Assembly (NCBI GenBank): GCA_008632985.1
Contig: QPGO01000080.1
Location: forward strand, 310,001-374,000
Reading direction: 5' to 3'
Source of the DNA: Psammoneis japonica
Lineage: Eukaryota
Length of the DNA stretch: 64,000 bases
Positions 22,510 through 43,064 of this stretch are shown one piece after another (position 1 is the first letter of the stretch; each line of letters starts with the position of its first letter). The translations under genes were made by a program, and so were the position numbers. The notes beneath the pieces are model-generated. The model was not told the origin of the DNA and made no database searches. It saw only the letters and a program-made list of their open reading frames with translations.

Positions 22510-22910
22510 ATGCCTTGATGGATGTGTCTCAAGAAGGCAGTGCTGCAAGTTTGCAGTGCAGGTTTTGCTGCTGGATTGTAGAGCTGCAAAGATCAAAATG
22601 ATCCAGCACATGTCAAGAGTCAGCCTGGCTCTGCATTTTGACCACTGGCAGAGCACAACCCAATGATTTGGGCTCCCAAGCTGCAAACTGAGATTTTGCA
22701 CTGTCCATGCTCCAGGCAGAGCACATCCCCTTGTCCAAGGTGATGTGAGTTCCACCAAAAATGAAAAAGAGCTCATCAAGGAAGTGGCTTTTTTGATGAG
22801 CATTGACAGGCTTGATGGGTGTGTCTCAAGAAGGCAGTGCAAGGTTGCAGCGCAGGTTTGCTGCTGGATTGTGAAGCTGTGAAGATCAAAATGATCCAGC
22901 ATGTGCCAAG
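22510..22910. repeat. ~100-bp diverged direct repeat pair
   Basis: cttgatggRtgtgtctcaagaaggcagtgc...aagatcaaaatgatccagca at ~22513-22618 and ~22810-22910. Confidence 0.8.
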
Positions 22911-25705
22911 CTTTTGGAATGGATTGAGGGCTTTGTGAACAATGCACCAGAATTCAACAATGATCCTGGTGCTTCCACACCACCACCCAGTGTGATTGTT
23001 GCACCCACAAGTGCTGATCATGGCCAAAACCTGCTCCGAGAAGCTGTGCTCTTCTTCTTCCACTTCAAGGGGGCATGGGTGTGTGGTCAAGTGTGAGAGG
23101 TTTGGCTTGGCAAAATTCATGACTCTAAGGACTCTTGTGACATTGTGGGTGACACAATTGTTGGAGAGCTGCAGAAAGAGCCGTGCAAAATTACAGCTGT
23201 GCCAGATGCCAATGACAGAGAAGCTCTTGTTTGCATGAGTGCCAATGAAGGAAAATGTTTCTGCAGGCGCATTGAGAGAAAGCAGAGAGAAGAATGGGAG
23301 CAGATGGATGAAGCTGGTGCTGGTGCATGTGTTCCTGAAGGAGGTCATGTGGACAAGGACCATGGCCCAACAAGGCTTGGGTTTGCAGTCATTGGGGACA
23401 TTGCTTTCTGCAAAACTGTCCTGGGTCAGGAAGGCACTCATGGGTTCTGTTGGAGATTGCTTTGGCAGCAAAACAAGCAAGTCAAAGATGGATGGAACAA
23501 TGTTGCTTGTGACATGAAGATGATGGAACAGATCATCAACATTGCATCCAACATTGTTGCAAATGGGGAAACAGCCAAAATGGAAGAGGGAGCTTGGCTT
23601 GAAGGAGAGGATCCATCCACCCAAATGAGAGGGAACATGGGGTGGACCATGGGTGTGCCAGTGAAGTGGTCAGTGGAAACACAGCTGTCAATGTCAACGC
23701 CATTTCCAACGCCATTCAACAATGGGTCAAGATGATCATCAATGCTGACAAAGGGAACCCTTGAATGTCTGCACCCCCTGCAAAGCTGGGAGTCATGGGA
23801 TGAACCCCAGCAGCCCACTCTCCAGCTTGCAATCCCAAAAAGCAGGATCCAGTGGCTGTGCTCCCCAAATGAGGAAAGAGCACACAATGTGCACCCCCCA
23901 GCACAGTTGTCAAAGGGTGCATCCACTGACATTGCTGCACCAACAGCACAAATGTGGGGCACAGGACAAACGCTGGCAATGACATCAGGAGAACTGTCAA
24001 AGAGTGTGGAAGGACTGACTGCACCCCTCACAAGCACAGGTGGCATGGCAGCATGATGGATGTCCCTCACACCACAACCATGAGGTGGTGCATTGCAGCT
24101 GCAGATGGACAATTCTGGATCTCCTGGCAGCAACTTCTTCATGACCCCACTGTTGGCTGCATTCAGACACTGTTTCTTTGATGGACAACAGTGGTGGTGG
24201 CTCCTCCATGCCTTTGAGCCACTGGAAGGGGACAAACGGCAATCCACGATGCACTGGAAAACAAAAAATGGGTGTGTGGAAATGTTGCTCTGTTGCCAAA
24301 ATAAAAAAGATGTCACAAAACAGACAAATTGTGAGTGAAATTTTGCTTCCCTTTTCCAACTGAATCAAACAAAATTTTTGGAGAGCATGGGAAAAACAGA
24401 GATTGCATTTGAGAAAAAAGATTGAGCATCACCAAAAGAGAGCTTGCAGCCAGCTGAGTGGCTGGATCATGTGCAGACACATGTGGCTGGGGTGTGACAA
24501 CTTGAACAATTTTGGAAAATGTGTCCTTTTCTGTTGGAGAAACACAAGTTGTGTTCAGGAATGGTCAATTGAAATCACACAGGAAATGGGTTCTCACAGC
24601 CTTTCTTCAACTCAAGGGTTTTCTGCCTTTTTTTCTCCATGTCAAGGGTTTCCTTTTCCTTCCTTGTGTTGGGTTCCCATGTCAGGGGTGCTTGGCATCC
24701 CAAGTGAGTTGTCCCCAAAATTCCCTTGAGTTGGCATCCCTCCATTTGGTTGCATCATGCCAGACATTTTTTGTTTGATGACAATTTCTTGATGTCACAT
24801 GATGTCATCACTGCCACAGTGTGAAGCACTCTTCTCACTGCTCTCACCCCAGCTGCTGATGTGACCATCACACTGTCAGACCATGATCACCACACTGTGG
24901 TGCCATCACAATGTGTTGGATGACATCGCTGGCACACTGTCAAATTCATTGCTGTTTTGTGGTCTGGCACTGCCAAAGACATCAGCACCATGTCATCAGA
25001 CATTTTCTTGCTCATCCACCTGGATGCATTGTTTCACATCAGCACCATCAATGTCGGCGCTGTCAAATTGCATTGCTCATTGCAGCAAGGCAATGGGAAC
25101 CTCCCTTGCTGGCTCAGTTTTCCTTGTTGATGCAACTCCCCAGCCCCAGTGTCATTTTGGGACAGACATCTGAGAAGCACTGTCTTTCACAATGGCAGGT
25201 TGACATGACATTTTGTGGTGTTGATGCCAAGTTGTTGAAGAAGCTCTTGACTGTCCTCCTCCAACTCCAGAGGAAACAGTCACTCTGGATCAGTGTCATG
25301 TGTGGTTGAGAAATGAAATTTCATGCAGAGAAAAAGAAACTTGGACTCATTTGCTGCACAAAGCCAACAAAAATGTCAAATCCAAAAACACGCACTTGTG
25401 CCAAGGCACTGTTGCTGAGTGTGTGAAGAAAAGAAGGGCTCACCATGCCAAATGTCACCATCATTGTTGACCAAGAATTGAGGAGGCAAAGATGAAGTCA
25501 AGCAAGTTTTTGGCCCCATTGGCAGCAACAGCCTCCAATGTGCAAAAACTTCTGCTGCACATGAGCCCCCAAAAGGGTGTTGCATGGCAGGGGAGAAGCA
25601 CAGGCAGGTGACACCAATGCTGAAAACAATGTGTTGTTGGTGGGCTTGAAGAGCATCCTGAATTTTATGATCCAACATCTGTCAAGAAAGATGAGATGCG
25701 TTTGC

Positions 25706-26381
25706 AGGATTCTGGGGGCTGTTGACCTTGAGGGGTGCCTTGTTGAAGAGCAATGCTGCCATTGATTCTTTGGTGGGATCAAGGGTTTCCAGTGGGATGA
25801 GTTCTGTGAAGATGCACTTTCTCAACAGATCAACAACATTGTCCTTGGATTGCGCATGTTGTGCATTGTCCAAAATTGATCTAGATCAATGACGATGCTG
25901 CCGCAAAGGGCATTGAAGATCTGAGTGGTGTCATCATTGCATCCGTGTGGTGCAAACACTGTGGAGATCTTGATGATGCCATCACAAGCCTGTTTCTTTG
26001 GAGTGTCAGGTGCCATGGTTGATGAGGTGCACAAAATGTTTGGTCACACAGGATTTTGGGGGCTGTCAACCTTGAGGGGTGTCTTGTTAAAGAGCAATGC
26101 AACCATCAATTCTTTGGTGGGATCAAGGGTTTCCAGTGGGATGAGTTCTGTGAAGATGCACTCCCTCAACAGATCAACAACACTGTCCTTGGATTGTGCA
26201 TGTTGTGCATTGTCCAAAAATTGATCCAGATCAATGATGACACCACCACAAAGGGCATTGAAGATCTGAGTGGTGTCATCATTGGTGCAAACACCATGAA
26301 GATCTTGCTGATGCCATCTTGAGCCTGTTTCTTTGGAGTGTCAGGTGCCATGGTTGATGAAGTGCACAAAATGTTTGGTCA
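25706..26381. repeat. ~340-bp tandem duplication in a decayed coding-like sequence
   Basis: ggattYtgggggctgt...gcacaaaatgtttggtca occurs twice (~25706-26046 and ~26051-26381); duplicated ORFs MCTSSTMAPDTPKKQ. Confidence 0.88.
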
Positions 26382-26517
26382 TGCACACGCAGAAACCTGG
26401 CATTGTTCTGCAGAGCCTGTGTGCTGATGAAAAAGTTGGGCTCAGGATCAAAAATGGTGGCCTGCTTGTTCAGCTCACAAACTGAACAAATCAAAATTGG
26501 GTTTTTGTTGCAGAGAA

Positions 26518-26813
26518 TGACAGGATTTGAACAGGATTTAGGTGCACGCGAAATGTCGTGCGCTGTTTGGTTTGCTGCGCACAGTTTTGTGTGCTTTGGT
26601 TCCGCGCGTTCGCACACAATGCAGTTTGCTTTCGAGCCACAAGGCTCACAAGAACAATGACAGTAGCCCGATTGTACCGACTTGCACGTCTTTCGGCTCC
26701 TGCAACGGTCTCTGAGCGGAGACTCATCTGCTGTTTAGACAGCAGCAAGGAGTTGTTGTTTGAACTCTTGCCATTTGCCTTCAATTTCTGTCAGAGAAAC
26801 AAGTGACCTGACA
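26518..26813 (+). repeat. Copia 5' LTR
   Basis: Colinear repeat of 35638-35933 at offset 9120. Confidence 0.92.
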
Positions 26814-26991
26814 ATGCCTTCAATTTCTGTCAGATTGACAGTCTTGCTCATTGTCAACCCATTGAGCAACCGCCATCGTCGTCGTTGATTTACCGACGAC
26901 GCCATTTCAATTCTGCGTGCACCTCCGTGTGTGTTCTACATGCATCGGCAAGTCTGCGCGCATTCAATGCCAGGCATCAGCAGGATTTTAA

Positions 26992-28922
26992 CGGGGACCC
27001 CCCGCAAGTCTGTACAACCATCCGATGGAGCATTTTTTGCGAGTTGAACGCAACTCTTCTCGTGTTGTCACCGCGGTGACCTTCCTTTGAAGTCTGTTGC
27101 ACACCAACCTTGTTGTGGCTGTCCTGCTGGCGATCCTTTTCGATGAATTGTTTGTTCCACTCCTGTTGCTGACATTTGGTGAAAAGGATCGCCAGCAGAA
27201 AGTGTTTTGCAACAACAACAATTGCGTCTCAATGTCACCGTCACCAATCAGCAGCGACACCCCAAACGCCTCCAAGCCAACTCAAATGGAAGAAAAAGCC
27301 GACAAGTGGAAGCATGCAATCCCGGCAGATGATGCATGGGGCCAGCATGGAAGAAAACCAGGGTTTCAGTGCCATGGGTGAGTCGCAAAATGTCAATGTT
27401 CCTTGTCAGTGTTGCATCAACGTCTCGCATCTCACAAACGTTTGTTTGGTCGTTGCAACTGTCCTGCTGTCAATGCTTTCACATAAGTCGTTTTTTCTGC
27501 TCCTGTTGGTGACATTTGATCGAAAGGATTGATGGCAGCAGGTGTTTTTATGACAACAATTGTTTGTCTCTATGTCGCCGTCGCCAAGCCAGCGACACAA
27601 AAAACGCCTCCACCAGGTCACCCAAATGGAAGGTAAAGCCGATGGAAAGAAATGAAGGAAGAGGCGCAAGCAAGAGACACAGAATGCCCCAAGCTGTTCC
27701 TTTGTTGACAGAGAAGTTTTGAACATGAAAATCACCACAAGCTCTGTCTTTTGTGGATTGGTGGCAACAAACAAACATGCATTCAGTCAGAGGCGCCGGA
27801 AACAAAAAAGGAAAGTCAAGATGTCTCCTGTGGGATGTTCACAATGCCTGCCCATCAGAGAATGACAGTTTGAGGGTTTGAAACATGGTCTGAGCTGGGA
27901 CAACTGCAACTAGAAACACTGCTGTTTGTCAGCATGCACAGCATTCGCCACAACTCTGCATTCCAGGTTTTGATTCTGTGGCTCTCATCCCAGGTTGTGT
28001 CCAACAGAAAGACTCCACAGAGTGTTACATTGGTGTCTTGTGATGGCAATTGCTACAGTGCTTGAGCAACTCCTGCACAGAGAAACACCCAACACACCAG
28101 TCGTGTTGCGTTCTCGCGGATGGGCTTGACTGTGGTCGTTGTCGAACAGAAACACTCTACAAAGCATTGCGTTGGTGTCTTGTGATCATGTGTGAACAGT
28201 TGTTGCTGTGCTCAAGCAACTCCCACACAGAGAAACCGCTCTCAAGCGTCATCCTGCCGTGTGCCGGCACGCAAGGGCATGCTGCTCCACCGCAGCTCAT
28301 TTGCAGAAGCAATCGACTGATCAACCAATTTCTTGCCCGATTCTTTGGATCCGCCATCATCAACAGTCTCGGAATCTGACTCAATGTGACGTGTTTCCGA
28401 ATTGCCAGAAGCATCGGGAGAAGCATGACCTTTGTTCTTCTTGCATGTGCGAGTGGCCTGCTTCTGACAAAGTCTGAATTGCCTCCACCACTGCTGCACC
28501 GTCCTTTTCCCTCGCGTTGCTGAGGAGATGTTTGTTCCCAATCCTTTGAGGAAGACACCCTTCAAAATTCTGTGCATCACAGCAACTGTGTTGGAGTTCT
28601 TCACCCGCCAGAGCAACAGCATGGTGGCACTTGCCTCTGCAGTCGTTTGCTGGGAGGGCAACTGAATTTGATGCGCCTTAGAGGCAGATGAGACATTGGA
28701 CTTGTGGAGTCCTGGAAAGCCACCAGATTGCAGTGACTTCAGCATGAGGTCACTGTCCATCCATGCACATGGAACCGCAGCTGGAAAAGCGGCAATAAGA
28801 AGCCACACGGCCTCGACAATCTCCACAGTTGGTTTGCTGTTTTTGTGATTAAAAAAACATCACGCAGCAACCACGGAGCTGAAGGAGCTACGGACAACGT
28901 ACAGACTTACGGGGGGTCCCCG
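26992..28922. mobile_element. Non-autonomous TIR DNA transposon with TTAA target-site duplication (superfamily uncertain, piggyBac/Kolobok-type target)
   Basis: 24-bp TIR CGGGGACCCCCCG(C/T)AAGTCTGTAC; TTAA at 26988-91 and 28923-26; inserted in the Copia 5' UTR; internal diverged duplications; no transposase recognised. Confidence 0.85.
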
Positions 28923-29703
28923 TTAACGTCACCGTCAAGTCTCCTTGCCGCTGGACATCTGGATTGATTGTGCTGCCTTTTGTCGCTGAAGACATGCATT
29001 CAACGGTCATGTCCAAGTCTATCCTTGATCCTCATCCCTTGACATGCCCATTCAACGGTTAACGGTCAAGAACCCCACATGTTCAAGGATCTTCGTCGCT
29101 GAAGACATGCACACACACATGTCTTCACGGCCAAGAACTTGCACCGACTCTTTGGACTGCGGCTTTGCTGCCACTCTACAAGCACACCAAGTCCACTGCA
29201 CCTGATCTGCCCCGGACCACTGGTGCTCTGCAGTTCTGCCAGGTCCACGAGGACGACTGTGAGAGCAAGCAGCCGTGGTTGCAGCCTGCATTGGGGCGAG
29301 GGTGTTTTCCCACGTTTGTTCGTTCGTCCACAGTGCCTGGCGCCTGCATCAACTGGCCAGCCTGATTGGGAAATCCAACCAACATAAAACAAGAATGGTT
29401 CGGGGGTCTTGTCCACCTCTGGTCAGCTCACCTGCAGGGGTTTGCAACCCGCCACTCCGCTCGCAAGCAACCCAAAGCGCCGCTGGCTGCGGGTTCGGAC
29501 GTGCCGGCACAACTCTGCAGACCGGATGGGAAGTTTAGCACTCAACAACGAATGGGGTGACACAGCCCGGCGACTTCTGATTTTAAGATAGTTCAAGATT
29601 TCAAGTCAAGTCCATTTCAAGTCAAGTCCATTCTCACCCAAGTTTCAAGTCCACCTTCGCGTCCCAACCAGAATCGCTTGTTCTGACACCGCTTTTGTCT
29701 GCC

Positions 29704-32700
29704 ATGGTTCTCACTTGTCAGCAACAAACTGATGGTTTCAAGCACCTTGTTGGAACCGTGCTTGCCCAAGGTGCTGGAAGCCCTCTTGGTTTGGCTTTGA
29801 CCCACGACGGCACGGACTCGCATCAAGAACTCTTCACGTTCACACCGCCCCAAATCGACTCGCTTGAGTGCGACAACGGCGCTGATGTGATCCCTTTGCC
29901 CCGTGGTTGTAAGAACATGTTAGCAGCTCTAGTTAGTCTGTACATTGTCAAAGCACACAAAGGTCTTGATGTTGCCAATGACTCCTCGTTGTTCACGCAT
30001 GAGGATTTCCTTGCCTGCTGCCTCAGCCCCGACTGCATGTCTTCTGTGTCCGTCGGCAGCTCGCCTCTTGCACCTCCGCACGTCACCAACCCGACCAAGG
30101 CACGTGACCTGGTGTGAGACTTCAAGCGAGGTGTCAAGCGTGACCCCACTGCTTTCACGGCTCTCAAATCCGACAAGCAGTGGCACACTTGGCACACCTC
30201 ACTTGTGGCACAAGCCCGTGCCCAAGACGTTGAGTGCATTCTAGACTCGTCGTACAAACCGACCAGCCCCAAAGACAAACTGCTCTTTGCTGAACAGCAA
30301 AAGCACATGTTCGCCGTCTTCGAACGCATCCTTCTCACTGACAAGGGCAAGGCTCTCATTCGCGAAAATGTGGGGTCTTCTGACGCCCAGACCGTCTGCC
30401 GCGCCTTGTCCGAGCATGCGCTCGCCTCCACCCGCGCATCCATCGAGTCCTCCACCTTGCTCACGCACCTCACCACCGCACGTCTTGGTGATGGCACTTG
30501 GAAAGGTCTGACCCACGGGTTCATCCTTCATTGGCAGGATCAGTTGCGCAAGTGCGAGGCACTCATCCCGGCCAGTGACCACTTCTCTGAAGGACAGAAG
30601 CGTGTCATGCTCGAGAATGCCGCACATCCTGTCGAGGAACTCCGCGCCGTCAAGAACCAAGCTGATCAGCATTGCACGCAGAGTGGCAAGAGCCTCACAC
30701 ATGATCAACATTGTGGCTTGCTCCTCTCCGCGGCGGCCCAATGCAACAGCACGTTTCAACCCAAGACGACACCTCGAGCTCCCCAACGCGCCATGTGCGC
30801 ACATGACGTCTGCTCCGAGGAACCATCCGATGATGTGTTCTGTGACATCGACAGTGACATTGACGTCCTTCAGGCTGGCGCTGCCCACACTCGCGGTCCC
30901 AGCCTCACCGGTGACCAATGGAAACGTCTCCCCCCCGACCACCAACGGATTTGGGATTCGTTGCCCCATTCCTCCAAGGCGATCATCCTTGAGCATTCTC
31001 GTCTGCCTCCCCGCAACCCGCGAGCCAGCAACTGCCATGAGTCCGTTGCGGCCAACCTTCACGACCAACGACTTGGGAGTGACGGTGATGTCAACTTGTC
31101 CAACACGACTCCTGCTGACTCTGGTGACCCCGCTCCAAATGTGGATGCCACTTCAGATGATCCCATCCTGGCGCACCTCACCAAGTGCAAGCCACTGCCA
31201 CCCGGTGATCTGCACCGCCTGTTGTCTCCTAACCAAGCCTCCAACGCCAGTCGACCGGGCCCATCCACCACTCCCTCTACCTTGCCTGCTCCCACAGATG
31301 ACACAGAACTTAACGGCCACACTTGCCGCCACGTCAATGACCACAATGTCGTTTGCTCTGCCTCCGCTCATCGCTCCACCTCTCGCCAAGTCGACGTTCA
31401 GGGCATTGACGACCATCAATTGGTGGACATCCCCATTGTCACCACTGGTGCTGTCATTGAGACACAGCGTGGTCCCGTCATCGCCATCCTCCATCAGTGC
31501 GCATGCACGGGAAAGGGCAAGACCATTCACTCCTGCGGCCAGCTCGAATGGCACAAACATGATGTCAACGATCGCTCTGTCAAGGTGCCCAACGGCTTGC
31601 AATGTGTCGCCACCCCTGATGGCTGTGTCACCCCAATTGACATCAAGGGCAGCCTGCCTTGTGTTGCCATGTGACCCTGCACTGACGCCGAATGGGACAC
31701 CCTGCCCCATGTCATCCTTGCCGGTGATGACACATGGGACCCTTCCATCCTTGATCACTCTGTCGCTGACGACAACCAGTGGTGCGACGTGATCTCTGAC
31801 CTGCAGGACGATCCCACTGCTGACCTGTTTGACGAATGCAGCAACTGCCATCACCGTGTCGTTGTCAACAAGGCCATCATGTCTGCCACCTTCTCTGCCA
31901 ATCACGCGTCCGCCCTCGATGACCACCTCATTCCGAATGACGACGTGTTCTGCGAGTGTCATCTACACGCGATTGACCCCAAGGATGACAACGTTCCAAC
32001 CCCGGAGCGCACTGTGCAGCCCAAGGACCCCCCATGCGAGTCTCTTCGGCCTTGCTTTGGTTTCCAACCTGCCGATGCGGTTCGTCGCACTTTTGACTGC
32101 ACCACGCAGTGCGCCCGCATGCCCGCCGGTGCTCACCTTAAGAAGGCCTGAAATTCGCCCAACCCTGCCCTTAATGTCCACCGCCGCAACGAGCCTGTCG
32201 CCACTGACACCATCTGTGCCGACACCCCGGCTGTCGACTCTGGTTGCACCAGCGCCCAACTGTTTGTTGGCACTGAGTCTGCTGTCACTGACGTCTGCGG
32301 CACCAAAACGGACAAAGAGTTTGTCAACACACTCAAGGATCAGATCCGTGAGTGTGGTGCTCCATCCAAACTCATCAGCGACCGTGCTCAAGTTGAGATC
32401 AGCAACAAGGTGCTCGGGATCCTGCGAGCCCTCTTTGTCTCCAGCTGGCAAAGTGAGCCTCACCAGCAACACCAAAACTTTGCCGAACGTTGATGCCAGA
32501 CCGTGAAGCGCATGGCGAACACTGTCATGGACTGTTTCGGTTTGCCTGCCCACACATGGCTGCTGGCGCTCATGCACGTGTGCTTCATGCTCAACCACAC
32601 AGCGTCCCCACGTCTCCACTGGCGCACGCCCCTCGAGACTCTCACTGGCTCGACCCGGACATCAGCCCATTGCTTCGCTTTCACTGGTGGGAACCCGTGT

Positions 32701-35630
32701 GCTTCCACCTCGATGACTCCGGTTGGCCGTCTGAATCCCGTGAGTTGCGTGGACGCTTTGTTGGCATTGCTGAGCACGTCGGCCACCAGATGACCTTCAA
32801 GATTCTCTCTGACGACACTCAGAAGATCCTCTGCCAGTCCAACGTATGATCCGCTGCCACCGATCCTGCCGTTCGAAACCTGCATCTTGATCCTCCTGAT
32901 GGGGAGCCACCTGAACCCATCATCAAATCTCGCCATGACGACAACCCCGTCGATTCACCCGATGGGGAGATCAGGACACCCAAGATGCCAGTTTTCGATC
33001 CGCAAGACATCATCGGACGCACCTTCCTCATGCAGCCACAAGAGGACGGACAACGCCACAGAGCTTGCATCGTCAAGGCCGTCGAAGACCACGAATGGAA
33101 AGTGAACGGCAACCCTGAGCTCACTGGGTTCATCTGCTCTGTCAACAACGACGAATGCGAGGAAGTCCTGGCCCACAACGACATCATGAATCACATTGAG
33201 CAAGAAGACGAAGACACCACTGTTTGGAAATTTCGATGCATTGTGTCACACGAAGGACCTCTGAAGCCTCATGACCCAACCTGGAAAGGCTCAAGCTACA
33301 ACATCATGCTTGAATGGGAAAGTGGGGAGATCACGTCCGAGCCTCTTGCCATCATCGCCAAGGACGACCCTGTCACCTGTGCCATCTGTGCACGAGAGAA
33401 CGGACTTCTCGACACTGATGGCTGGAAGCGGTTCCGCACCATCGCGAGGCGCCAGAAGAAGCCACTCCGCATGGCCAACCAAGCCAAGCTTCACTCCTTC
33501 CACACTGCACCTCGCTACAAGCACGGATGCGAAGTTCCCCGGAACTGCAAACACGCCATGTCACTAGATGAACACAACGGCAACCGCAAATGGGGAGACG
33601 CAACTAATCTCGAGATGGACCAACTCGATGAATATGAAGTCTTTCATGACTGCGGGCCCTCCGAGTCTTCCACTCCTCCTGCGGGACACAAGAAGATCCG
33701 AGTGCACCCAGTGTGCGACGTGAAACACGACGGCCACCACAAGGCACGACTCGCAGCCGATGGGCACCTCACGGACGCACCCATCGACAGTGTCTACTCC
33801 GGAGCAGTCTCCCTCCGTGGCCTTCGGCTGATGGACGCGTTCCAGGTCTAGGTGGGACCACGCACTGCTGAACTGTGACATCGATGGTTTTTTGAATCGC
33901 GTCGTATGTCGCGCACGTACATTTCTACGTGATTTTGGCGAAATTTTGCATCATTTTACAGTGCAATTGTCAGGCGATCCATTCAACAACTTTTAACATT
34001 TTTTTCTTCTACGCCATTCTCGAGTGTCTCAAGAATGGTGCAGGGCAGGCGCATTGTCCAAAACTTCGAGTACGAACAGAGATGTGTGCACTGCAAACTT
34101 GGCCGTTTGTTTTGTGTCAAAGACAAATGCATCCATTAACCAGAGTGCGAACTACAGAGCTCGCACGCAGAATTCTACGGGGCAAATGTCACAAAAAGTC
34201 CCACCTGGGACTGGAACCCGTCGATGATTTTCCTGGCCGAACTCAACGAGTTGGAGACATGGGCCACCGACATTGGCAATGCCCACCTTGAAGCCACCAC
34301 CAAGGAGAAGCTGTGCATCGTAGCTGGACCCAAATTTGGCAAACTCGAAGGCCACATTCTTGTCATCCACAAGGCCCTGTGTGGACTGCGCAGCTCCGGC
34401 CTCTGCTGGCATGAGCGCTTCGCCGACTGCCTGTGAGCTGAAGGTTTCTTCCCCTGCCGCGCCAAACCCGACATTTGGATGCGCAGGAACGGCGACCACT
34501 GCGAACACATTGCCGTTTATGTGGATGACCTCGCCATTGCCATGAAGGATCCTCAATCTTTCATTGATGCTCTCACGGAAAAGCACAAGTTCAAGCTTGA
34601 GGGTGCGGGATCGATTGAGTTCCATCCAGGCTGCGACTTTTCCCAGGATCCTGACGGCACCTTGTGCCTGTCTCCGCGCAAGCACATTGAACGTATGGTC
34701 GACAGCTGCACACGACTGTTTGGGGAGAAACCTGCCACCAACACCCTGTCACCTCTGGAGAAGGGTGACCACCCCGAACTGGACACTTCCGAACTGCTGG
34801 GGCCCGATGGCATTCAACAGTTCCAGTCTCTTGTTGGTTCACTCCAATGGGCAGTGTCCCTTGGTCGAATTGACATTGCCACGGCCGTCATGTCACTCTC
34901 TAGCTTCCGAGCTGCACCCCGTCAAGGCCACTTGGATCGTGCCAAATGCGTCTGTGGGCACCTCTCCAAGATGCGACACGGCGCTCTCCGCGTTTGCACG
35001 GAAGAGCCCGACCATTCGGATCCCCCTGCTCCAGCCCATGAATGGATGCATTCCGTGCACAGCAAGGCAGAAGAGATGATCCCGAAGGATGCTCCACCGC
35101 CCCTTGGCAAGTTCGTCACTGCCACCCACTACGTCGATGCAAACTTGTGCCATTGCATGCTCACCGGACGCTCTGTCATGGGAATGCTCCACTTCCTCAA
35201 CAAATTCCCGGCTGATTGGTTCTCTAAGAAGCAAGCCACCGTGGAGACTGCGACCCACGGGTCTGAATTTGTTGCCGCAAGGACTTGTGTCGAGCAGATC
35301 ATCGACCTGCGCATCACCCTGCACTGCCTCGGCATCCCGATCCGTGACATCAGTCACATGTTCGGTGACAACAAGTTGGTTGTAGACAGTGCCACCATCC
35401 CGCACTCCAAGTTACACAAGCGACACACCGCACTGTCATTCCACCGTGTGCGCGAGGCAATTGCCTCTGGTTGCCTTGAGTTCCACTTCATCAAAGGATC
35501 CCGCAACCCTGCTGACATTCTCAGCAAGCATTGGGGTTGCTCCCAAGTCTGGGACCTTCTCCACCCCCTCATGTTCTGGAACTTCATTCCATCCAAAGTC
35601 GAATCTGTTTCTGTGACTCCTCAAGCAAAC
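29704..35630 (+). pseudogene. Copia gag-pol, with stops, frameshifts and pervasive Y->C/H substitutions
   Basis: ORFs 29695.., 30205..31674, 31789.., 32985..33851, 34224..34436 and 34479..35780 are colinear with a Copia polyprotein. Confidence 0.9.
33834..34222. mobile_element. 389-bp MITE with ~25-bp imperfect TIRs and a 4-bp TSD (possibly Sola-type) inserted in Copia RT
   Basis: Left GACGCGTTCCAGGTCTAGGTGGGAC; right (reverse complement) GACGGGTTCCAGTCCCAGGTGGGAC; TSD GATG at 33830-33 and 34223-26. Removing it restores GLRLM-IFLAELN. Confidence 0.9.
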
Positions 35631-35637
35631 TGGGGAG

Positions 35638-35933
35638 TGACAGGATTTGAACAGGATTTGGGTGCGCGCGAAATGTCGCACGCTGTTCAGTTCACCGCGC
35701 ACAGTTTTGTGTGCTTTAGTTCCGCGCGTTCGCGCGCAATGCAGTTTGCTTTCGAGCCACAAGGCTCACAAGAACAATGACAGCAGCCCCATTGTGCTGA
35801 CTTGCACGTCTTTCAGCTCCTGTGATGGTCTCTGAGCGGAGACTCATCTGCTGTTTAGACAGCAGCAAGGAGTTGTTGTTTGAACTCTTGCCATTTGCCT
35901 TCAATTTCTGTCAGAGAAACAAGTGACCTGACA
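35638..35933 (+). repeat. Copia 3' LTR
   Basis: Follows the PPT; matches the 5' LTR. Confidence 0.92.
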
Positions 35934-38280
35934 ATGCCAAAACCCATCAGAGTGCTGATGGCATGAGCAATGTGCCAAAGAGCTCACTGCAAACAATGAC
36001 AGTGGACAACACATGTGCCAGCAAGAAAGAGCGAGAGAAGATCTCATGGAGATCATCTTGTCCATCTAAAAGAGTCTGACCATCATCCACACACAGTCTG
36101 CCCATGTGTCCTGCACAGAGCAGGCTGACAGAAATCCAGGAGAAAGGAGTGCCTTGCATCAAGTGTGGACTCAAGAACCACAAGAAATGCTTGTTGTGCT
36201 TGGACAATGGCGGCCACAGGTGCTTTGATTGTTGCAGACACAATGAAAAGCAAACCATCAAAAGCTGCATGGCAGCAAGGAGCACAACCACACAAAGCTT
36301 TCACACTTCAGACTGTGTGACACACTGCACCAGGAGCACGTCAATTTGAAGTGCCATGAGTGCAACATCAAGTGGAACAAGAACAACTGCAGAGTGGGTC
36401 ATTTGTGCAATGCAAAAAACCAAAGATGGAGAGTTGCAGGCAGAGGTGCATTGCCAGAAGAAGCAAAAGAAGGACTCTTGAGATGCTTCACAGAGAACAG
36501 GAGGGCAGTGGTTTTGTTTGTGTGGATTCAACTTCAGCTTGTGTGGCATTGCCAGTGATGTTGGCTGAAAAGCATGTGCAGTGGCAACAGCAGAGCAAAC
36601 ATGGCAGTGTTCACAACAGCAAACACAGCACAGTGACTGTTGTTGTGCTTGTGATTTGACATTGAAACAGGCAATGTCAAGTTGCACAACAGGCCCTTGC
36701 ACAGGGAAACAGCGCAAAGGCCAGATCCGCAACCCCAGGTGTGACGTCTGCAAAACGCAGACAACAATGACCAAATTCTCTGACCTTGCTGCTGTGGTGG
36801 TGTTTCCATGATGAGAAAAGATTCTGATGTTGTGAGATGATGTGACACAATGGCATCAAGGTTGTCAATGTTGTTGGAATGTGCATTGTGGAGTGATGTC
36901 ATGGAAAACCAAGTCAAGCAAACAGCCTCAAGATGGAAGCGCACTTGACATGAGATGAAATCAGCAAAAAACTCTCAAGTTGAGGTGTGTCCTCTCTCTG
37001 CATGTGCAGGTGGAGGGATGCTGGACAAATCAGACAAGGGCCGTGAAGAGGGTCCCTTGTGATGGGCCTCATCTTGGGGGGAACGAATTTTCTTTGCAGC
37101 CATCCTGCACGAGTCATGAAGGCATTGCAGGATTCATGCAGGTTGGCATGAACAAAATGCAGATTTGTCACATCAGATGCAGACCATCCTGTGCTGCAGG
37201 CAGGTCAACCCAATGCAGTGATGCAAAACCTGTGTGGAGTTCTTCTCTGACATGGCAGCACAACCAAACACAACAGAGGACAAAGCTGGTGGCTCAGGGT
37301 TGTCAGCACCAGCATCAGGAAAATGGCGCCAGTGACAGTGGCACAAAAAGCATGGGGGGCATCGTTGTGAGTCCAAAGAATGGAACAGGCAAGCAGGGAG
37401 CATGGCAGAAGCTTGTTTGGAAACATGGGAGGGGCTGCAGGGGAGCAAGATGACTCGGCACTCTGCCCACACTGTCAACAACTGGCTCCCGATGGAAGAC
37501 AACTTGGTGTGTCAGAGGCTGGAGTTTCTGTGCACAACATGGCAGTGCCAACAAGGGGCTGGAAGCATGTTCTCAACTTTTGGAGCAATGTTGATGAAAA
37601 GAAAAGGGAAAAAAGGGTGGAGCCCTGGTGGAAAACTTGGCACACCTGCTCCAAATGCAACCCCGCTTTTTGCCATGATTGCCAGCGCAGCGGCGCTTCC
37701 TGGTTTTGTGGGGCAAATGTGCTGAGAAGGATGCTTCACCCACCCTCCACCTGCTGAGGGCTAAAAAAAAAGTGAGGTGGCTTGTGATGGAATGTGTTGC
37801 AACACCGCATGTCTGTCGTGGCAGGTGAGTTTGTTTTTTGTTTGTTTGAGTGTTGAGTGGGAGGTGCGGGTGTCTCAACTGACCATTTTTTCGAATTCCG
37901 AGCGTTGGGTTCAAATTTTCATTGATTCATCATTCAAAGAAATAACACATGAAATTGTTTCATTGATGTCAACCATGACATAAATTTATGCTGATGTTCA
38001 TCTCATAAGACTGTCCAGAAAGGCGCGAAGAACACATTCGATGCTGTACGTGCTGCATCATACAGCAGGTACTGTACTGTACCGTACGGTAGATCCAACG
38101 CTTCAAAAAATTCAAAATTGTTCTTTCAACGCACCGTAGAATCTACAGGATCCCTCATACATTTCTGTCAACGCACGCGAAGTCGAGCACCTTTCAAAAT
38201 TGATCCGGTCGAGTTTGGCAAAGCAAATAATCTTCTCACAAATTGCAAAAATTACAAGAACGCAAACAACGACAAAGGCA

Positions 38281-39349
38281 ATGAAAGCAACTATGACTCT
38301 TGTGAAGGCCCTTGTGGTCGCCAGTGCCATGCTGTGCTTCTCATCTGTCCACGCTGGCATCAGCAACCTACCGGCACCGAAGGAGCTTGATGACCTAGTG
38401 GTGAGTGCTACTCTCGCGCCCTGAAAAGCACTAGATGTACGACGATGTACGGTACTCACCATGTTCACGTGTCTATGTTTTCCTGCAGCTTGAAAGCGGA
38501 GGTCGGGCACTCAATGGTGCTGGTGTTGAGCTGGATCCTCAGGATTTTGGGTTGAAACGTACACTGGGTGGTAAAAGGTCCAAGAGCGGCAAAGGCAAGG
38601 GTGGCAACAGATCTTCAAGCACCACCAAAAGCAAGAGCAGCAAGGGCAAGGGCAAGGGTGGCAAAAGATCTTCAAGCGAAAGCGACAGCTTCCTCCCAGT
38701 TTGTGATGAAAGCGTGGACCCCCACACAAAAGTTGGTGGATTCACTCTGGGTGAACTCCAGCTCCGTTGGTGGAACTGGAACATTTGTGAGCAAGCTTTT
38801 GCTTCGGCTGATGGATCGTGTGCAAGCCAAGACCAGGTGCCTAGCGGGTGGCTCTTCCTTGCTGGGGGTGGCGGCGACTGTGACGCCGACATTTTACAGC
38901 GTGCTTGTGACATCCCAGAGGGGACGTACAATGCATTCTTCCCCGTCGTCAATGTTGTTTGCGCTGACTATGATGATGATGTCTGCCAAGATCCAGAGAC
39001 TGGAAGAATGAATTGTGCTGGCCTTGCCGACATTCTCCAACCCAAAAGTGGCTACTCCGAGCTCTTTGCCAGGGAAGATAATAAACTGTTGGATATCTTC
39101 TACCTTTTCGATGACACTGAGCGCTACTTTGAGGCATGCCTTAATGGATATGAAGAATGTGATGATTGCGACGAAATTGAATGCACTAGTCTTGATGGAA
39201 TGGATGCTCACCCCAGTTTTGGTTGGTGGGCACTTGTAGAGGATGTCGAAATCAAGGCAGGAGATACCAAGACCTTTGATGAAGGAGCCAATCTCTTAGC
39301 TGCTGATTTCTGCCCTCGAGTCAAGTACACTCTGACCGGTGTCGTTTAG
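38281..39349 (+). CDS. Secreted protein: signal peptide, K/S/G-rich linker (GKGKGG repeats), acidic Cys-rich domain (WWNW..WLFLAG..C.IP.G..FFPVVN)
   Basis: Exon 1 38281-38400 (MKATMTLVKALVVASAMLCFSSVHAG), intron 38401-38488 (GTGAGT...CTGCAG), exon 2 in frame to TAG at 39349; normal Tyr content. Confidence 0.85.
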
Positions 39350-39869
39350 GAGAGCCGTTTAAGGAGGTGAGTATATTGAGACATTACACGTCATTCAAAT
39401 GGTCACGCATTGAACTCACACCACCTACCCTAACAGGCGACTTTAGGAACATTGTCCATGTGTTATTGTTAACGCGCATACGGCTAACCAGATTGAAATT
39501 ATGGCTGCCGGGCCCTCCTACTGGGAGTAAAACAAATTTAGAAAAAGTATTCATAGTAATGCGTGTTGTAATTTGTGGACAAATGAATACCGGTATAGTC
39601 TTCAGTTCGTACCATTTACTTTCTAGCATCATCTATTAGTAAGTCTCATTTGCTCAGCCACTCTCGACTAAACACACGTCTATCCTTACAAGAAAGCCAG
39701 AAAGAGTTGGGCGGGGTTTTTCACGAAGTAAATTGAATGCAAACAAGGCTTGTTGCAAGTTTTTGTGCATATATCCAGCGGACGCCAAATAACAATTTTA
39801 CCAGAAATCTACGCACGCTAGACTTTGTACTTGTGTTTCATGCATTTTACTCATCGTTTCGGTTTCTCC

Positions 39870-40530
39870 CAAAGTGCTTCAGCTTATAGTGAAAGCCATG
39901 GCATTGACATTGTCTCCAATAGAATGCGTTAGAAAGGCAGAGCGATATTCAATGGGATCAACGGGAGCATTGGTGGGTGGGGACGCAATTGTGCCGGCTT
40001 TTCATGGGCCGAGAGGGTTATTCCAAATTGCGGAAATAATGCAGCTGAATGCTTGGCTTTGATAAAGAATTACAAACGAATGCAGGCATACACAGCAAGA
40101 AAACATCCTTCTCACCTTTGATAGCCTTCATGCTTCAAAATCTTGACGGTGCAGCCACGAATTCCGGAATAGGCAAGTTCGCCCTCTCGTGTTATAACTT
40201 GAAGGCGCGTATTTACTACATCCGCAGGAGTTGTCAAAAATGCAGCTAGTGAAAGTAGTATGGAAACAAATGATGATGGGTCGACAAATGCCATGACATT
40301 GGAAGAAGCTGAATCTTCGTTTGGCGAACAAACTTATACCAGGAACACCAGCAGAGGCTCCCGCGACAAGTAGGTTTGCGGTAGACGGTTCTTGCTGGAC
40401 CCTTCTTGTTCTCAGTTCCATGAGATAGTCCTTGAACCACGCGTACGCGGAAAAGTAAATGGCAGAAAAGGAAAATCGCGAAACAGACACGCTGCCGCAC
40501 CCTTGTAGAGCCCCTGGTAAGCGCTAACTG
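39870..40530 (-). pseudogene. C-terminal fragment of a mitochondrial carrier (SLC25, aspartate/glutamate carrier-like)
   Basis: GLYKGAAACLFRD/FSAIYFSAYAWFK, LLVAGASAGVP [intron] AAFLTTPADVVNTRLQV (Px[D/E]xx[K/R]xR-like), PQFGITL. Frameshifted; the N-terminal repeats are absent. Confidence 0.75.
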
Positions 40531-40699
40531 CAGCTTTGGCATGGATTACCTTTTCTTTCAACATGCTAGCCGTCTTTTCATGGACTTGTATACGATTTTT
40601 TTTGTGATTTCCGAGGGATTAGTCACCAACACTTTCAACTTGACATACTCCAGCACGACCGCCCCTCAAGATTTGAAAGAAAAGTCTATCTGGTTGAGA

Positions 40700-41140
40700 C
40701 AACTGGGTTGTTGATGGTACATCATTGGGACCCGCACTCGGAACTAATGAAGGTGTGGTTGAGGGTACCGTTGAAGGCGTCAAGGATGGCACATCCCTTA
40801 CCAAATGGTTGAGACGACGGGGTTGCTGATGGTACATCACTGGGAGCCGCCCTCGTCAGTGACGAGGGTGTGACTGAGGGTATCGTTGAAGGCGTCAAGG
40901 ACGGGACATCACTTAGTTCAGACGACGGGGTTGTCGATGGTACATCACTGGGAGCCGAACTTGGTCCGCCTGATACAATACTCGACGGTAAGTCACTTGG
41001 AGCAGCACTCGGAACTGTACTCGGCTGATCAGATGGACTACTCGACGGTACGTCACTAGGAACAGCAGCCGGAACTGCCGAAGGTGTTGCTGATGACACA
41101 TTTGATGGCGTCAAGGACGGCACATTACTGGGTTCAGGAC
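40700..41140 (-). repeat. Coding-type Pro/Ser repeat tract (PSDVPS..PS), fragment of a mucin-like surface protein
   Basis: ORFs 40722..41345 and 40619..40840 with PSxxPS tetrapeptide periodicity. Confidence 0.7.
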
Positions 41141-41159
41141 TATGGAGATGTCGATAGAC

Positions 41160-41345
41160 AAATGCTCCGACCGTGGCAACCCCAAGTCCCACAACACTAG
41201 CACCGACACGACCTCCGACACTAGCACCCACCCTGGAACCGACGCCTGAACATACAGTGAATCCCACCGGGAACCCCACTCGTTGGCCTACACTAGGTCC
41301 TACCGAACCAGTTACAAGCTCGCCTTCTCTGTCAATGAAACCCAA
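41160..41345 (+). repeat. Coding-type Pro/Thr repeat tract (PTxAPT)
   Basis: APTVATPSPTTLAPTRPPTLAPTLEPT..PTGNPTRWPTLGPT on the plus strand. Confidence 0.65.
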
Positions 41346-43064
41346 GCCCCTACAGCAGATCCCACAGCAACAGTTGTTCCGACTCCGCCAATTCTTGTTG
41401 TGGTGCTGCCTCGGTGGAGATATCCTGCCACCTCCAACTTAAGCTCCTAGACCACTCAAGCCCGGCAAATCTTTTGTGACACCACCGCCAACGCCGCAGC
41501 GAACTCTGCCTTGTCAAACAGCACCTCCATAAAAACCAGCGTCAACCCCGGCAACTCCAACAGTGCCAAAACCGACACCAACTCCTATCTAACACCTCCT
41601 CCCTCCCACGTTTCCACCAACACCTTCTCTGCATCCACCAACGCCCTTGCCAAGTCCCGAGCTCATGCTATTGCCGACTCCTCCATTCCGCTCCAGCCAT
41701 GTCCTGTACTTTCTGCCCATTCTCAGCAAAACCCTGCTTGACAACACGGCGAATTTTAACCACTGTTTTCAGATCATGTTCATGACACCCGCAGCCCACT
41801 GCAAGTCGGTACCCATCTCGGAAACTGAAAAAATGACAGGCAAAATGAAAATGTGAGGGGAACCACGTACACAATAACAATCCACTGAGGCCACATATCA
41901 CAGTATTACTCACTATGATAGCTTCCAGAGGTAGTTCTGAGACACCCTACATAGTTTTAAGGCCCCAAGTACCACCAGCGGTTCGTGGCATCCGAGCATC
42001 CAAGAGGAGGCGAGGAGCCCGGCAGTGCAAGCCTCCACCTCTCCATTTTACCCGGTGCAAAGCCTGGACTAGTCGGCACACTACCAAGATCTCCCAAAAT
42101 AATGTGGACAATATTGTGTCTTCGAAAATGAAGAGAATCGATTGTAGAGTAGGAAAAAAGGCTCATCATAGACCAGATACCTGCACGCGTGAACGAGACG
42201 CACAAAAAAAGGCTCGTGAGGTATACGACTTTCGTCAAAACGACTCTAAAACTCAATCAATCACAATATACTCACAGTTTTACCTTCTTTAGAGTAATTC
42301 AAGTCTGTCTGACAAATACCAACGTCATAAGTATCCCCGAGGCTCCATCGCGTCGTTTTGTTCCCACGGTGCGCACTTTTCAGAAATTGTGACGGCCAAA
42401 AAACGACATGAAGTGATTACGAGCCGACCAAGACCCCTCCAAGCAAATCAAACACGTCACAACACCACCCTAATATGTATCTTAATATGTATAATAGGTT
42501 CACCAAAGGATGTAGAGTGGGATGAAGCATAAAGCTCCTTAACGGATACGCTTTGGTGGCGCCGACGACTTGGAAAACATGCCAACAAAACAGACACCAT
42601 AATCGACCGTACGGGACGATCCATCCACCTTTCAAACTGTAACAAAATGCAACAATGATCTTTAGTGAGTAGGAAAACGATATAAAAGGGATAAACACAG
42701 AAAGAACTTACCGCCGCAACGTTGTCGACCATTCAGGTGTTACCCGTAGAGCGTGCAACAGTTGAGTCACGAGTCGAGTCACTCCACAGTCTCTACCGCC
42801 GTGTGTCGCAACCGAAGCCTCCCCCCAGAAATCAAACCAATGTATCAGCCTCTTTACAACAACGATAGAAAAAAAGATCCCCCATGAAAGATACGTCGAC
42901 CCAACGATGTTTGCCATGTCGAGGCACTTCAAAGTGCAACATGCCGTTTTTCATGCCAAATCGGGAACGTTTGAGTCCAATCGAATTATTCGACTGTCGT
43001 ACTTCACCTGGTGAAATTTCAGTCACGGACGCCGCCGGGAACCTTGCCGCTGTTCCGATTTTAA

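What the first reader, a model, noticed from the sequence alone, without database searches (positions are those of the whole stretch)
29700..35600. TpA loss outruns CpG loss: the Copia is CpG-rich but TA-poor
The Copia interior keeps abundant CG (e.g. 30361-30480) but almost no TA. Older sequence at ~22300-26400 and ~35950-37500 has lost both CG and TA. Inference: two processes converge on TG/CA, a fast near-saturating TA conversion and a slower 5mC deamination clock. This argues for an active or episodic mechanism rather than passive drift.
Basis: partly seen in the sequence, partly recalled or inferred. Interest (0 to 1): 0.7.

Follow-up and report, generated by a model that had tools for sequence, protein, structure and literature searches.

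The report
TA loss outpaces CpG loss
A dead jumping gene in this algal genome has had about five in six of its TA steps, but only about one in three of its CG steps, rewritten to TG or CA, so two separate mutation processes act on silent DNA and the TA-directed one works faster.

Summary
Observation confirmed; interpretation partly supported. The Copia is an LTR element (LTRs 26515-26818 and 35635-35938; polyprotein remnant 29704-35780) nested in an older repeat. Its coding DNA has 28 TA where 259.5 are expected (o/e 0.11) but 345 CG (o/e 0.80). The host repeat (21750-26514, 35940-37800) has TA 0.02-0.03 and CG 0.08-0.17.

Measured against 40 intact relatives, 37 of 44 conserved Tyr codons are now Cys or His (84% of TA converted). 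Only 21 of 62 conserved CGN Arg codons are now Cys, His, Gln or stop (34% of CG converted). So the element is "CpG-rich" only because it began richer.

The LTR pair shows the changes came after integration: about 78% of TA and 23% of CG per LTR. CpG loss tracks other substitutions at about 75-125 times their rate. TA loss is front-loaded.

Among 80 metagenomic relatives the two conversions are uncorrelated: three show TA conversion with little CG loss, ten the reverse. A 393-bp MITE inside the Copia is barely TA-depleted.

"Episodic" is suggested but not shown, because residual TA still falls with age and TTAA-type contexts resist.

This scan has already reported the TA-erasing process on other pieces of this genome. 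One 2026 preprint describes it in another alga.

The parts
26515..26818 (+). 5' LTR of the Copia-type element. By eye the LTR proper begins at TGACAGG, 26518.
   Evidence: It aligns over 304 bp at 93.1% with 35635-35938. The 21 mismatches are 4 TG/CA sites, 4 TA/x, 7 CG/x, 1 other transition and 1 transversion.
35635..35938 (+). 3' LTR, preceded by a purine run (GGGGAG) at the end of the pol frame
27042..28949 (+). Low-copy stretch inside the Copia leader. It is not part of the high-copy family. TA o/e is 0.12 and CG 0.59.
   Evidence: Summed contig depth is 500-8300 here, against 45000-168000 on the rest of the element. Composition.
29704..33833 (+). Copia polyprotein remnant, first part (residues 1-1392 of relative P0001)
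   Evidence: tblastn. Tyr and Arg codon counts.
33834..34223 (.). MITE-like insertion of about 390 bp with terminal inverted repeats. It holds 11 TA (o/e 0.40) and CG o/e 1.05.
   Evidence: There is a gap in the protein alignment. Inverted arms lie at 33831-33858 and 34198-34225. Three contigs join 33829 to 34223, skipping 393 bases. Composition. P(>=11 TA) = 2.5e-4 if the insertion were depleted like its host.
34224..35780 (+). Copia polyprotein remnant, RT/RNase H part
   Evidence: tblastn gives 71% identity to P0001. RVT_2 scores 18-21 bits on two collinear ORFs. P0001 itself scores 104 bits for RVT_2.
21750..26514 (.). Older host repeat, left of the insertion. Both TA (0.03) and CG (0.08) are nearly erased.
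   Evidence: No Pfam family matched any of its ORFs.
35940..37800 (.). Older host repeat, right of the insertion (TA 0.02, CG 0.17)
43600..46900 (.). Second TA-poor but CpG-rich block (TA 0.07, CG 0.73), unidentified
1..14306 (+). First copy of a 14.3-kb near-identical duplicate, used as the youngest time slice
   Evidence: It is 99.8% identical to 49702-64000. The 14 mismatches are 11 CG/x, 0 TA/x and 3 other. There are 11 one-base indels, 7 of them in homopolymers.
49702..64000 (+). Second copy of the 14.3-kb duplicate
5131..5510 (-). Probable LTR of a Gypsy-type copy, paired with 9900-10281 and used as an older in-place pair
   Evidence: The pair is 83.8% identical. Classes are TG/CA 18, TA/x 4, CG/x 13, same CG 4 and other 8 of 380. 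rve, RNase H and RVT_1 lie between the two arms on the minus strand.
9900..10281 (-). Probable partner LTR of the Gypsy-type copy
38000..43000 (.). Gene island used as unmutated control (TA 0.65, CG 0.83)
47100..50300 (.). Gene island used as unmutated control (TA 0.47, CG 0.93). It includes a split 5'-3' exonuclease gene.

Best explanation
A Ty1/copia-type LTR retrotransposon inserted into an older repeat. After integration, two separate transition processes changed its DNA, and both end in TG/CA.

(1) A repeat-directed A:T-to-G:C change confined to TpA, acting on either strand. It has converted about 80-85% of the element's TA.

(2) C-to-T change at CpG, most simply deamination of 5-methylcytosine in silenced DNA. 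It has converted about 23-34% of its CG.

Per site, the TA process ran about 4-6 times faster in this element. The element is therefore TA-poor while still CpG-rich, having started at a CpG o/e of about 1.0-1.2. The older host repeat has lost both.

CpG loss behaves like a clock at about 75-125 times the rate of other substitutions.

Shown here: the conversions, that they happened after integration, their order, and their independence across copies. Inferred: the chemistry (adenine deamination, cytosine methylation) and the tempo (bursts or continuous).
For: Conversion in the coding part:
- At 907 columns conserved in 40 relatives, the 48 Tyr columns read C 20, H 17, Y 7, F 3, W 1. That is 37/44 converted, on both strands.
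- The 67 Arg columns read 41 CGN kept, 2 AGR, 21 changed to Cys/His/Gln/stop, and 3 other. That is 21/62 converted.
- Over all single-step changes there are 50 TA-type, 33 CG-type and 7 other transitions. Fisher P = 2e-7.

LTR pair:
- It shows 4 TG/CA discordant sites, 4 TA/x and 1 shared TA, against 7 CG/x and 12 shared CG, with 2 other changes in 304 bp.
- This gives p = 0.78 and q = 0.23 per LTR.

Polarity of the CG-type changes:
- Of the 40 best-supported private differences from the family majority, 25 are window TG/CA against family CG.

Nesting order:
- Host repeat: TA 0.02-0.03, CG 0.08-0.17.
- Copia: TA 0.11, CG 0.80.
- MITE: TA 0.40, CG 1.05.

Rate of CpG loss relative to other change:
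- It is 126x, 78x and 92x in three in-place pairs.

Relatives:
- Intact relatives have coding TA o/e with a median of 0.66 and CG up to 1.18.
- L007 is 18/19 against 2/18, L012 is 8/21 against 1/21, and L031 is 4/15 against 3/19.
- Ten loci have q >= 0.24 with p <= 0.07. Spearman is -0.02 over 80 of 80 loci.

Literature:
- TpA-only A>G/T>C hypermutation of foreign DNA has been measured directly in Bigelowiella natans (10.64898/2026.01.13.699255; abstract, Results and Discussion read).
- Loss of DNMT5a depletes methylation and de-represses young TEs in a diatom (PMC9998398, abstract only).
Against: - One element and one nest carry most of the argument, and the counts in the LTRs are small.
- CpG o/e is not a pure clock. 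The low-copy stretch inside the Copia has lower CG (0.59) than the Copia itself (0.80).
- Some CG-type differences may be consensus errors. The duplicate's 11 indels are all single bases, 7 of them in homopolymers. At 17 of the 40 listed places, no contig of the run shows the window's letter.
- The 40 places shown are the tool's selection out of 662 and favour sites where the family is uniform, so they cannot be used to compare TA with CG.
- The hosts of the metagenomic relatives are unknown. 'CG-only' copies may simply sit in hosts that lack the TA process. The loci were also picked by two intact peptide patterns.
- Neither methylation nor any deaminase was observed.
Confidence: 0.8

Rival explanations
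1. Strict burst model. TA conversion happens in one or a few short episodes soon after insertion and then stops, while CpG decay ticks on.
For: - The MITE inside the heavily converted Copia keeps 11 TA, where 2.9 would be expected at its host's level (P = 2.5e-4).
- The 14.3-kb duplicate shows 11 CG-type and 0 TA-type differences among 92 shared TA. A constant-ratio model expects 3.5-8.4 (P = 0.03 to 2e-4).
- L007 is 95% TA-converted with only 11% CG loss.
- In B. natans, only 11 of 15 lines mutated.
Against: - Residual non-TTAA TA keeps falling with CpG across 9 blocks, from 0.16 to 0.02 (Spearman 0.83).
- Relatives show intermediate conversion of 27% and 38%.
- Of the 72 residual TA in the mutated part of the duplicate, 28 are TTAA and 30 are half-flanked resistant contexts.
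- The duplicate may carry assembly noise.
- The MITE may simply be very recent.
Confidence: 0.35
2. The CpG contrast between the Copia and its host repeat reflects different methylation targeting or different starting composition, not age.
For: - Relatives range from CG o/e 0.07 to 1.18 with normal TA.
- The nested low-copy stretch has lower CG than the Copia around it.
Against: - The insertion order is fixed by nesting, and the CpG steps fall exactly at the LTR ends.
- CpG loss is demonstrably under way in the Copia itself, at 21/62 Arg codons and 7 of 19 LTR CpG sites.
- CG-type change scales with other change in three pairs.
Confidence: 0.2
3. One machine does both. A single deaminase system converts A at TpA and C at CpG in the same silenced tracts, with different efficiency.
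For: - Both products are TG/CA, and both are confined to the same tracts in this window.
- The preprint's text cites ADAT2-type enzymes that deaminate both A and C in DNA.
Against: - The two conversions are uncorrelated over 80 relatives, and each occurs without the other.
- The near-identical duplicate shows CG-type change only.
- In B. natans, 230 of 231 hypermutations were A>G or T>C.
Confidence: 0.1
4. RNA-level A-to-I editing of Copia transcripts (ADAR-like) copied into DNA by reverse transcription.
For: A 5' U preference is known for ADAR (as stated in the preprint's Discussion).
Against: - The two LTRs differ at 8 TA-derived sites, 4 of them TG in one and CA in the other. Those changes therefore came after integration.
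- Both strands are hit about equally, 28 TG to 22 CA.
- The non-retroelement host DNA and the low-copy stretch are equally depleted.
Confidence: 0.03

Closest known systems
TpA-restricted hypermutation of integrated viral DNA in Bigelowiella natans (Mettrop et al., bioRxiv 10.64898/2026.01.13.699255; abstract, Results and Discussion read)
   Same: Changes are A>G or T>C only at TpA, on either strand. They are confined to foreign or repeat DNA beside normal genes. TpA-depleted, CpA+TpG-enriched tracts are enriched for reverse-transcriptase and DDE domains. The process is not always active.
   Different: That work measures new mutations in mutation-accumulation lines of a chlorarachniophyte, where TA is only about halved (Rho 0.45). 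It does not address CpG decay. Here the evidence is a fossil record in another lineage, with near-saturation (TA o/e 0.02-0.11), a measured ratio to CpG loss, and a context effect (TTAA).
Repeat-induced point mutation (RIP) of Neurospora and other ascomycetes (recalled knowledge; also cited in the preprint's Discussion)
   Same: It is a DNA-level, repeat-directed, transition-only process that riddles transposons with stops and missense changes.
   Different: RIP changes C to T, mainly at CpA, and so creates TpA. Here TpA is destroyed and the G+C share rises. No link to duplication or to a sexual stage is shown.
CpG decay by deamination of 5-methylcytosine in methylated transposons (vertebrates, plants; diatom TE methylation by DNMT5a, PMC9998398, abstract)
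   Same: The polarity is CG to TG/CA. The change is roughly proportional to other substitutions and is restricted to silent repeat DNA.
   Different: Methylation was not observed here. The rate relative to other change (about 75-125x) is higher than the roughly tenfold figure I recall for mammals.

Membership tests
Ty1/copia LTR retrotransposon | Copia-type reverse transcriptase (Pfam RVT_2) | tested here: met
   The window's ORFs score only 18 and 21 bits, below the 31.6 cut-off, but they are collinear on the profile. The whole frame is collinear with P0001 over residues 1-1850, and P0001 scores 104 bits for RVT_2.
Ty1/copia LTR retrotransposon | Direct long terminal repeats flanking the coding region | tested here: met
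   The 304-bp repeats are 93% identical and lie 9120 bp apart. The 3' one directly follows the end of pol and a purine run.
Ty1/copia LTR retrotransposon | Target-site duplication | tested here: not met
   No matching 4-6 bp flank could be read at either candidate LTR boundary. The flanks are themselves heavily mutated.
Ty1/copia LTR retrotransposon | Integrase upstream of the reverse transcriptase | tested here: inconclusive
   Pfam finds no integrase family in P0001 at E <= 0.001 or in the window's ORFs.
TpA-restricted hypermutation (B. natans type) | Changes are A>G or T>C at TpA, on either strand | tested here: met
   There are 28 TA>TG and 22 TA>CA against 7 other non-CpG transitions at conserved columns. 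37 of 44 Tyr codons are converted.
TpA-restricted hypermutation (B. natans type) | Confined to foreign or repeat DNA, with neighbouring genes spared | tested here: met
   TA o/e is 0.02-0.16 in 9 repeat blocks, against 0.47-0.65 in two gene islands.
TpA-restricted hypermutation (B. natans type) | Acts on integrated DNA | tested here: met
   LTR discordances. Two Gypsy copies and a probable Gypsy LTR pair also show many TG/CA discordant sites.
TpA-restricted hypermutation (B. natans type) | New mutations seen in real time; activity not constitutive | not testable with these tools
   This needs mutation-accumulation lines or dated strains. Only one study's run holds the stretch.
RIP (Neurospora type) | C>T at CpA giving excess TpA | tested here: not met
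   TpA is depleted to 0.02-0.16, and TG and CA are in excess.
5-methylcytosine deamination decay | Polarity CG to TG/CA | tested here: met
   25 of the 40 best-supported private differences are window TG/CA against family CG. Four in-frame TGA codons sit at conserved Arg columns.
5-methylcytosine deamination decay | CpG in these tracts is methylated | not testable with these tools
   No methylation data are available.

The most novel reading that the evidence does not exclude
The TpA mutator is a fast, insertion-triggered genome defence. It disables a new transposon copy by converting 80-95% of its TA sites before the methylation clock has removed a tenth to a third of its CpG. It works in bursts, perhaps tied to a life-cycle stage or to element activity, and is blind to TTAA. 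This would be an adenine-directed counterpart of RIP in stramenopile algae. CpG loss would then serve as a built-in clock to date each hit.
Probability: 0.3. Interest if true: 0.8.

Novelty: new member of a known kind. Interest (0 to 1): 0.6.

Why it matters
If TA erasure is faster than CpG decay and independent of it, each repeat carries two clocks. CpG loss dates the copy, and TA loss shows whether and how hard the mutator struck. That makes the tempo and the trigger of a barely described adenine-directed genome defence testable from sequence alone. It also warns that TE dating, TE annotation and protein searches in such genomes are distorted: Tyr becomes Cys or His, Arg becomes Cys, His or stop, and Pfam scores fall below their cut-offs.

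Tried and rejected
I used 80 metagenomic relatives instead.
- Pfam gave nothing for 0 of 48 ORFs in 14.3-26.5, 35.9-38.0 and 43.0-47.1 kb.
- No target-site duplication could be read.
- I first treated 6200-7178 and 13600-14577 as an LTR pair. Pfam shows they are the coding parts of two Gypsy copies, so I dropped them as an in-place clock. I also dropped the 72-80% identical internal repeats.
- The runs test for strand-coherent TG/CA tracts over 50 sites gave P = 0.26. Only a post-hoc longest-run test stands out (12 TG in a row, P = 0.006).
- Which flank (-2 T or +1 A) protects TA could not be told. The product counts are confounded by CpG decay.
- Sequencing runs: no RNA holder is listed, and all 4 rows come from one study, possibly the source sample.
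- The MITE has no look-alike in earlier notes.
- The protein atlas gave the family (5'-3' exonuclease) but no taxon. I did not verify that the organism is a diatom; that label comes from earlier notes.
- Literature searches listed no paper on TpA loss in diatom repeats. The one diatom/hypermutation hit (PMC9258296) is unrelated (passages read).
- bioRxiv supplements of the B. natans preprint could not be seen.
Full report
**1. What is there**

The window is repeat-rich. Overall TpA o/e is 0.15 and TG/CA about 1.6. Two gene islands (about 38.0-43.0 and 47.1-50.3 kb) keep TA at 0.65 and 0.47 and CG at 0.83 and 0.93. No whole genome is held. Earlier notes of this scan, from other pieces of the same genome, call it a diatom and have already reported the TA-erasing process many times. 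I did not test the taxon.

**2. Anatomy of the flagged region**

- Two 304-bp direct repeats at 26515-26818 and 35635-35938 are 93.1% identical.
- The second follows a purine run at the end of a long frame.
- That frame is collinear with an intact 1859-residue relative, P0001: residues 1-997 map to 29704-32655, 998-1392 to 32655-33833, and 1392-1850 to 34224-35600.
- P0001 carries Pfam RVT_2 at 104 bits. The window's own ORFs reach only 18-21 bits.
- No target-site duplication could be read.

Two later additions sit inside it.
- A roughly 390-bp MITE-like insertion with inverted ends lies at 33834-34223. Three contigs of a public run join 33829 to 34223 directly, which is the empty site in other copies.
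- A low-copy stretch lies at 27042-28949. Summed contig depth there is 500-8300, against 45000-168000 on the rest.

In 250-bp bins the CpG count jumps from 0-4 to 13-16 at the outer end of the 5' LTR and drops from 15 to 3 at the outer end of the 3' LTR. The element therefore lies inside an older repeat, at 21750-26514 and 35940-37800.

**3.

| Segment | TA observed / expected (o/e) | CG observed / expected (o/e) |
|---|---|---|
| Copia coding DNA without the MITE | 28 / 259.5 (0.11) | 345 / 433.8 (0.80) |
| Host repeat, left | 10 (0.03) | 20 (0.08) |
| Host repeat, right | 2 (0.02) | 19 (0.17) |

In 500-bp windows over the non-duplicated part, TA o/e is bimodal: 75 of 99 windows lie under 0.2 and 14 at or above 0.4. 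CG o/e in the TA-poor windows spreads from under 0.1 to 0.9.

**4. Conversion relative to a consensus**

I aligned the window's frame (stops as X) with 40 relatives. These were the first 40 by id of the 67 proteins of 1800-1950 residues, taken from the 120 listed. I kept the 907 columns where at least 70% of the relatives agree.

- The 48 Tyr columns read Cys 20, His 17, Tyr 7, Phe 3 and Trp 1. Leaving out the 4 Phe/Trp columns, 37 of 44 (84%; 95% CI 70-93%) are TA>TG or TA>CA, about evenly on the two strands.
- The 67 Arg columns read 41 CGN kept, 2 AGR, 21 changed (Cys 9, His 6, TGA stop 4, Gln 2) and 3 other. That is 21 of 62 (34%; CI 22-47%).
- Fisher's test on the two fractions gives P = 2e-7.
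- Over all single-step differences there are 50 TA-type, 33 CG-type, 7 other transitions and 37 transversions, plus 44 multi-step differences and 5 ambiguous ones. The transversions and multi-step differences probably include ordinary family divergence.

So the Copia is "CpG-rich" only because it started richer. Intact relatives reach CG o/e 1.0-1.18 and have a median TA o/e of 0.66. This fits 0.80/0.66 = 1.2 for the starting CG, and an 84% loss of TA.

**5. The changes came after integration**

The LTR pair differs at 21 positions.
- TA-derived: 4 sites are TG in one LTR and CA in the other, 4 are TA against TG or CA, and 1 TA is shared.
- CG-derived: 7 sites are CG against TG or CA, and 12 CG are shared.
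- Other: 1 other transition and 1 transversion.

A simple two-copy model gives p = 0.78 of TA and q = 0.23 of CG converted per LTR, a per-site ratio of 5.9. The coding part gives 4.4. This rules out editing of the RNA before reverse transcription.

The polarity of the CG-type changes comes from laying the contigs of run X1 on the element. Of the 40 best-supported places where nearly all depth disagrees with the window, 25 have TG or CA in the window and CG in the family. Two caveats apply. The tool shows 40 of 662 places and favours sites where the family is uniform. At 17 of the 40, no contig shows the window's letter at all, so some may be consensus errors.

**6. Tempo**

Three in-place pairs give time slices.

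| Pair | CG-type | TA-type | Other | Estimates |
|---|---|---|---|---|
| 14.3-kb duplicate (1-14306 / 49702-64000, 99.8%) | 11 | 0 (92 shared TA, 413 shared CG) | 3 | q = 0.013 |
| Copia LTRs | 7 | 8 sites | 2 of 304 | p = 0.78, q = 0.23 |
| Probable Gypsy LTR pair (5131-5510 / 9900-10281) | 13 CG/x, 4 shared CG | 18 TG/CA discordant (about 5 of them CpG-derived) plus 4 TA/x | 8 of 380 | p = 0.93, q = 0.62 |

CpG loss divided by other change is 126x, 78x and 92x, so it is roughly clock-like. The TA-to-CG ratio is 0, 5.9 and 2.7, so TA loss is front-loaded.

The zero in the duplicate is weak evidence.
- Of the 72 residual TA in its mutated part, 28 are TTAA and 30 carry one resistant flank. The expectation under a constant ratio is therefore 3.5-8.4 (P = 0.03 to 2e-4).
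- The duplicate's 11 indels are single bases, 7 of them in homopolymers, so part of its differences may be assembly noise.

The MITE is a better pointer. It has 11 TA where 2.9 would be expected at its host's level (P = 2.5e-4), and it fits the gene-island level. It may, however, simply be recent.

Against a clean step, two things stand out. Across 9 TA-depleted blocks, residual non-TTAA TA o/e falls from 0.16 to 0.02 as CG o/e falls from 0.85 to 0.08 (Spearman 0.83, P = 0.005). I drew the block limits partly after seeing the CpG profile.

**7.

A scan of metagenome contigs returned 80 loci that encode relatives of the RT/RNase H part. All 80 had at least 8 conserved Tyr and 8 conserved Arg columns. 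At codon level:

| Locus | TA converted | CG converted |
|---|---|---|
| L007 | 18/19 | 2/18 |
| L012 | 8/21 | 1/21 |
| L031 | 4/15 | 3/19 |
| L050 | 0/34 | 22/34 |

- Ten loci, L050 among them, have CG conversion of at least 0.24 with TA conversion of at most 0.07.
- The two fractions are uncorrelated (Spearman -0.02, P = 0.86).
- L007 has 3 TA in 2766 bp.

The fractions therefore do not scale together. In all four copies with clear TA conversion (the three above and the window's copy) TA leads CG, and TA can approach saturation while CpG is nearly untouched. The caveats are that the hosts are unknown, the loci were found through two intact peptide patterns, and DNA identity to the window's element is only 71-80%.

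**8. Mechanism**

Shown:
- The TA process is a DNA-level change that acts on either strand and is confined to TpA.
- It is aimed at repeats.
- It is separable from CG>TG/CA decay.

Inferred:
- Adenine deamination. The only description I found, for Bigelowiella natans, proposes an ADAT2-like enzyme and reports that only 11 of 15 lines mutated.
- Deamination of methylated cytosine for the CpG decay. Diatom TEs are methylated through DNMT5a (PMC9998398, abstract).

The TA process has a context effect. TTAA makes up 76 of 276 residual TA in depleted DNA, against 11 of 322 in the gene islands. Its density, 1.24 per kb, is about that of the genes, 1.34 per kb, while other contexts fall to 0-0.25 of the gene level. 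Pairs show that TTAA is not fully immune.

**9. Novelty**

Searches listed no paper on TpA loss in diatom repeats. The B. natans preprint describes the same signature, so this is a new member of a known kind. The scan had already found it on other pieces of this genome.

What this finding adds is the measured lead of TA over CpG loss, the independence of the two processes across copies, the roughly 100-fold CpG clock, and the nested three-step chronology.

Noticed in passing
window 1-14306 and 49702-64000: A 14.3-kb stretch at the window's start recurs at its end at 99.8% identity (14 mismatches, 11 one-base indels, 7 of them in homopolymers), with a period of 49.7 kb. It is either a recent large duplication or an assembly artefact. 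It may extend beyond the window.
   Followed up: partly
all TA-depleted parts of the window (e.g. 1001-37700): Residual TA is strongly enriched for TTAA: 76 of 276, against 11 of 322 in gene islands. ATAC and ATAT are almost absent. TTAA density equals that of the genes. Which flank protects TA could not be resolved.
   Followed up: partly
window 30743-32437: Twelve consecutive TA-derived changes are all of the TG type, which looks like a strand-coherent tract of about 1.7 kb. The post-hoc longest-run test gives P = 0.006, although the overall runs test is not significant (P = 0.26).
   Followed up: partly
window 33834-34223: A MITE-like element of about 390 bp with roughly 17-28 nt inverted ends lies inside the Copia. 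It is little TA-depleted. Other contigs of the run show internal deletions of it, so it belongs to a multi-copy family.
   Followed up: partly
window 27042-28949: A low-copy stretch lies inside the Copia leader. It is TA-depleted (0.12) and has lower CpG (0.59) than the surrounding element. Its origin is unknown, and no Pfam family matched.
   Followed up: partly
L007 (whole locus, 2766 bp); L012; L031:1-1200: Environmental contigs carrying related Copia elements show the same TA erasure. L007 has 3 TA in 2766 bp. L012 is patchy. L031 is depleted only in its first 1.2 kb. The process therefore occurs in wild populations, in one or more unidentified hosts.
   Followed up: partly
L050 (12084 bp), L040, L013: Related Copia loci have CpG almost erased (o/e 0.07-0.16) but normal TA. 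These appear to be hosts with CpG decay only.
   Followed up: partly
window 43063-43272 and 43347-43556: A 210-bp inverted repeat (91% identical arms) lies at the edge of a gene island. It is partly TA-converted, with 4 shared TA, 3 TA/TG and 2 TG/CA sites.
   Followed up: no
window 5725-7840 and 13557-14618, minus strand: Two Gypsy-type copies carry rve, RNase H, RVT_1 and Integrase_H2C2 and are 85% alike. Many TG/CA discordant sites separate them.
   Followed up: partly
window 26400-36000: At 17 of the 40 best-supported differing places, no contig of run X1 shows the window's letter (for example 28055, 30115, 33635). These may be consensus errors in the assembly, or a difference between strains.
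   Followed up: no
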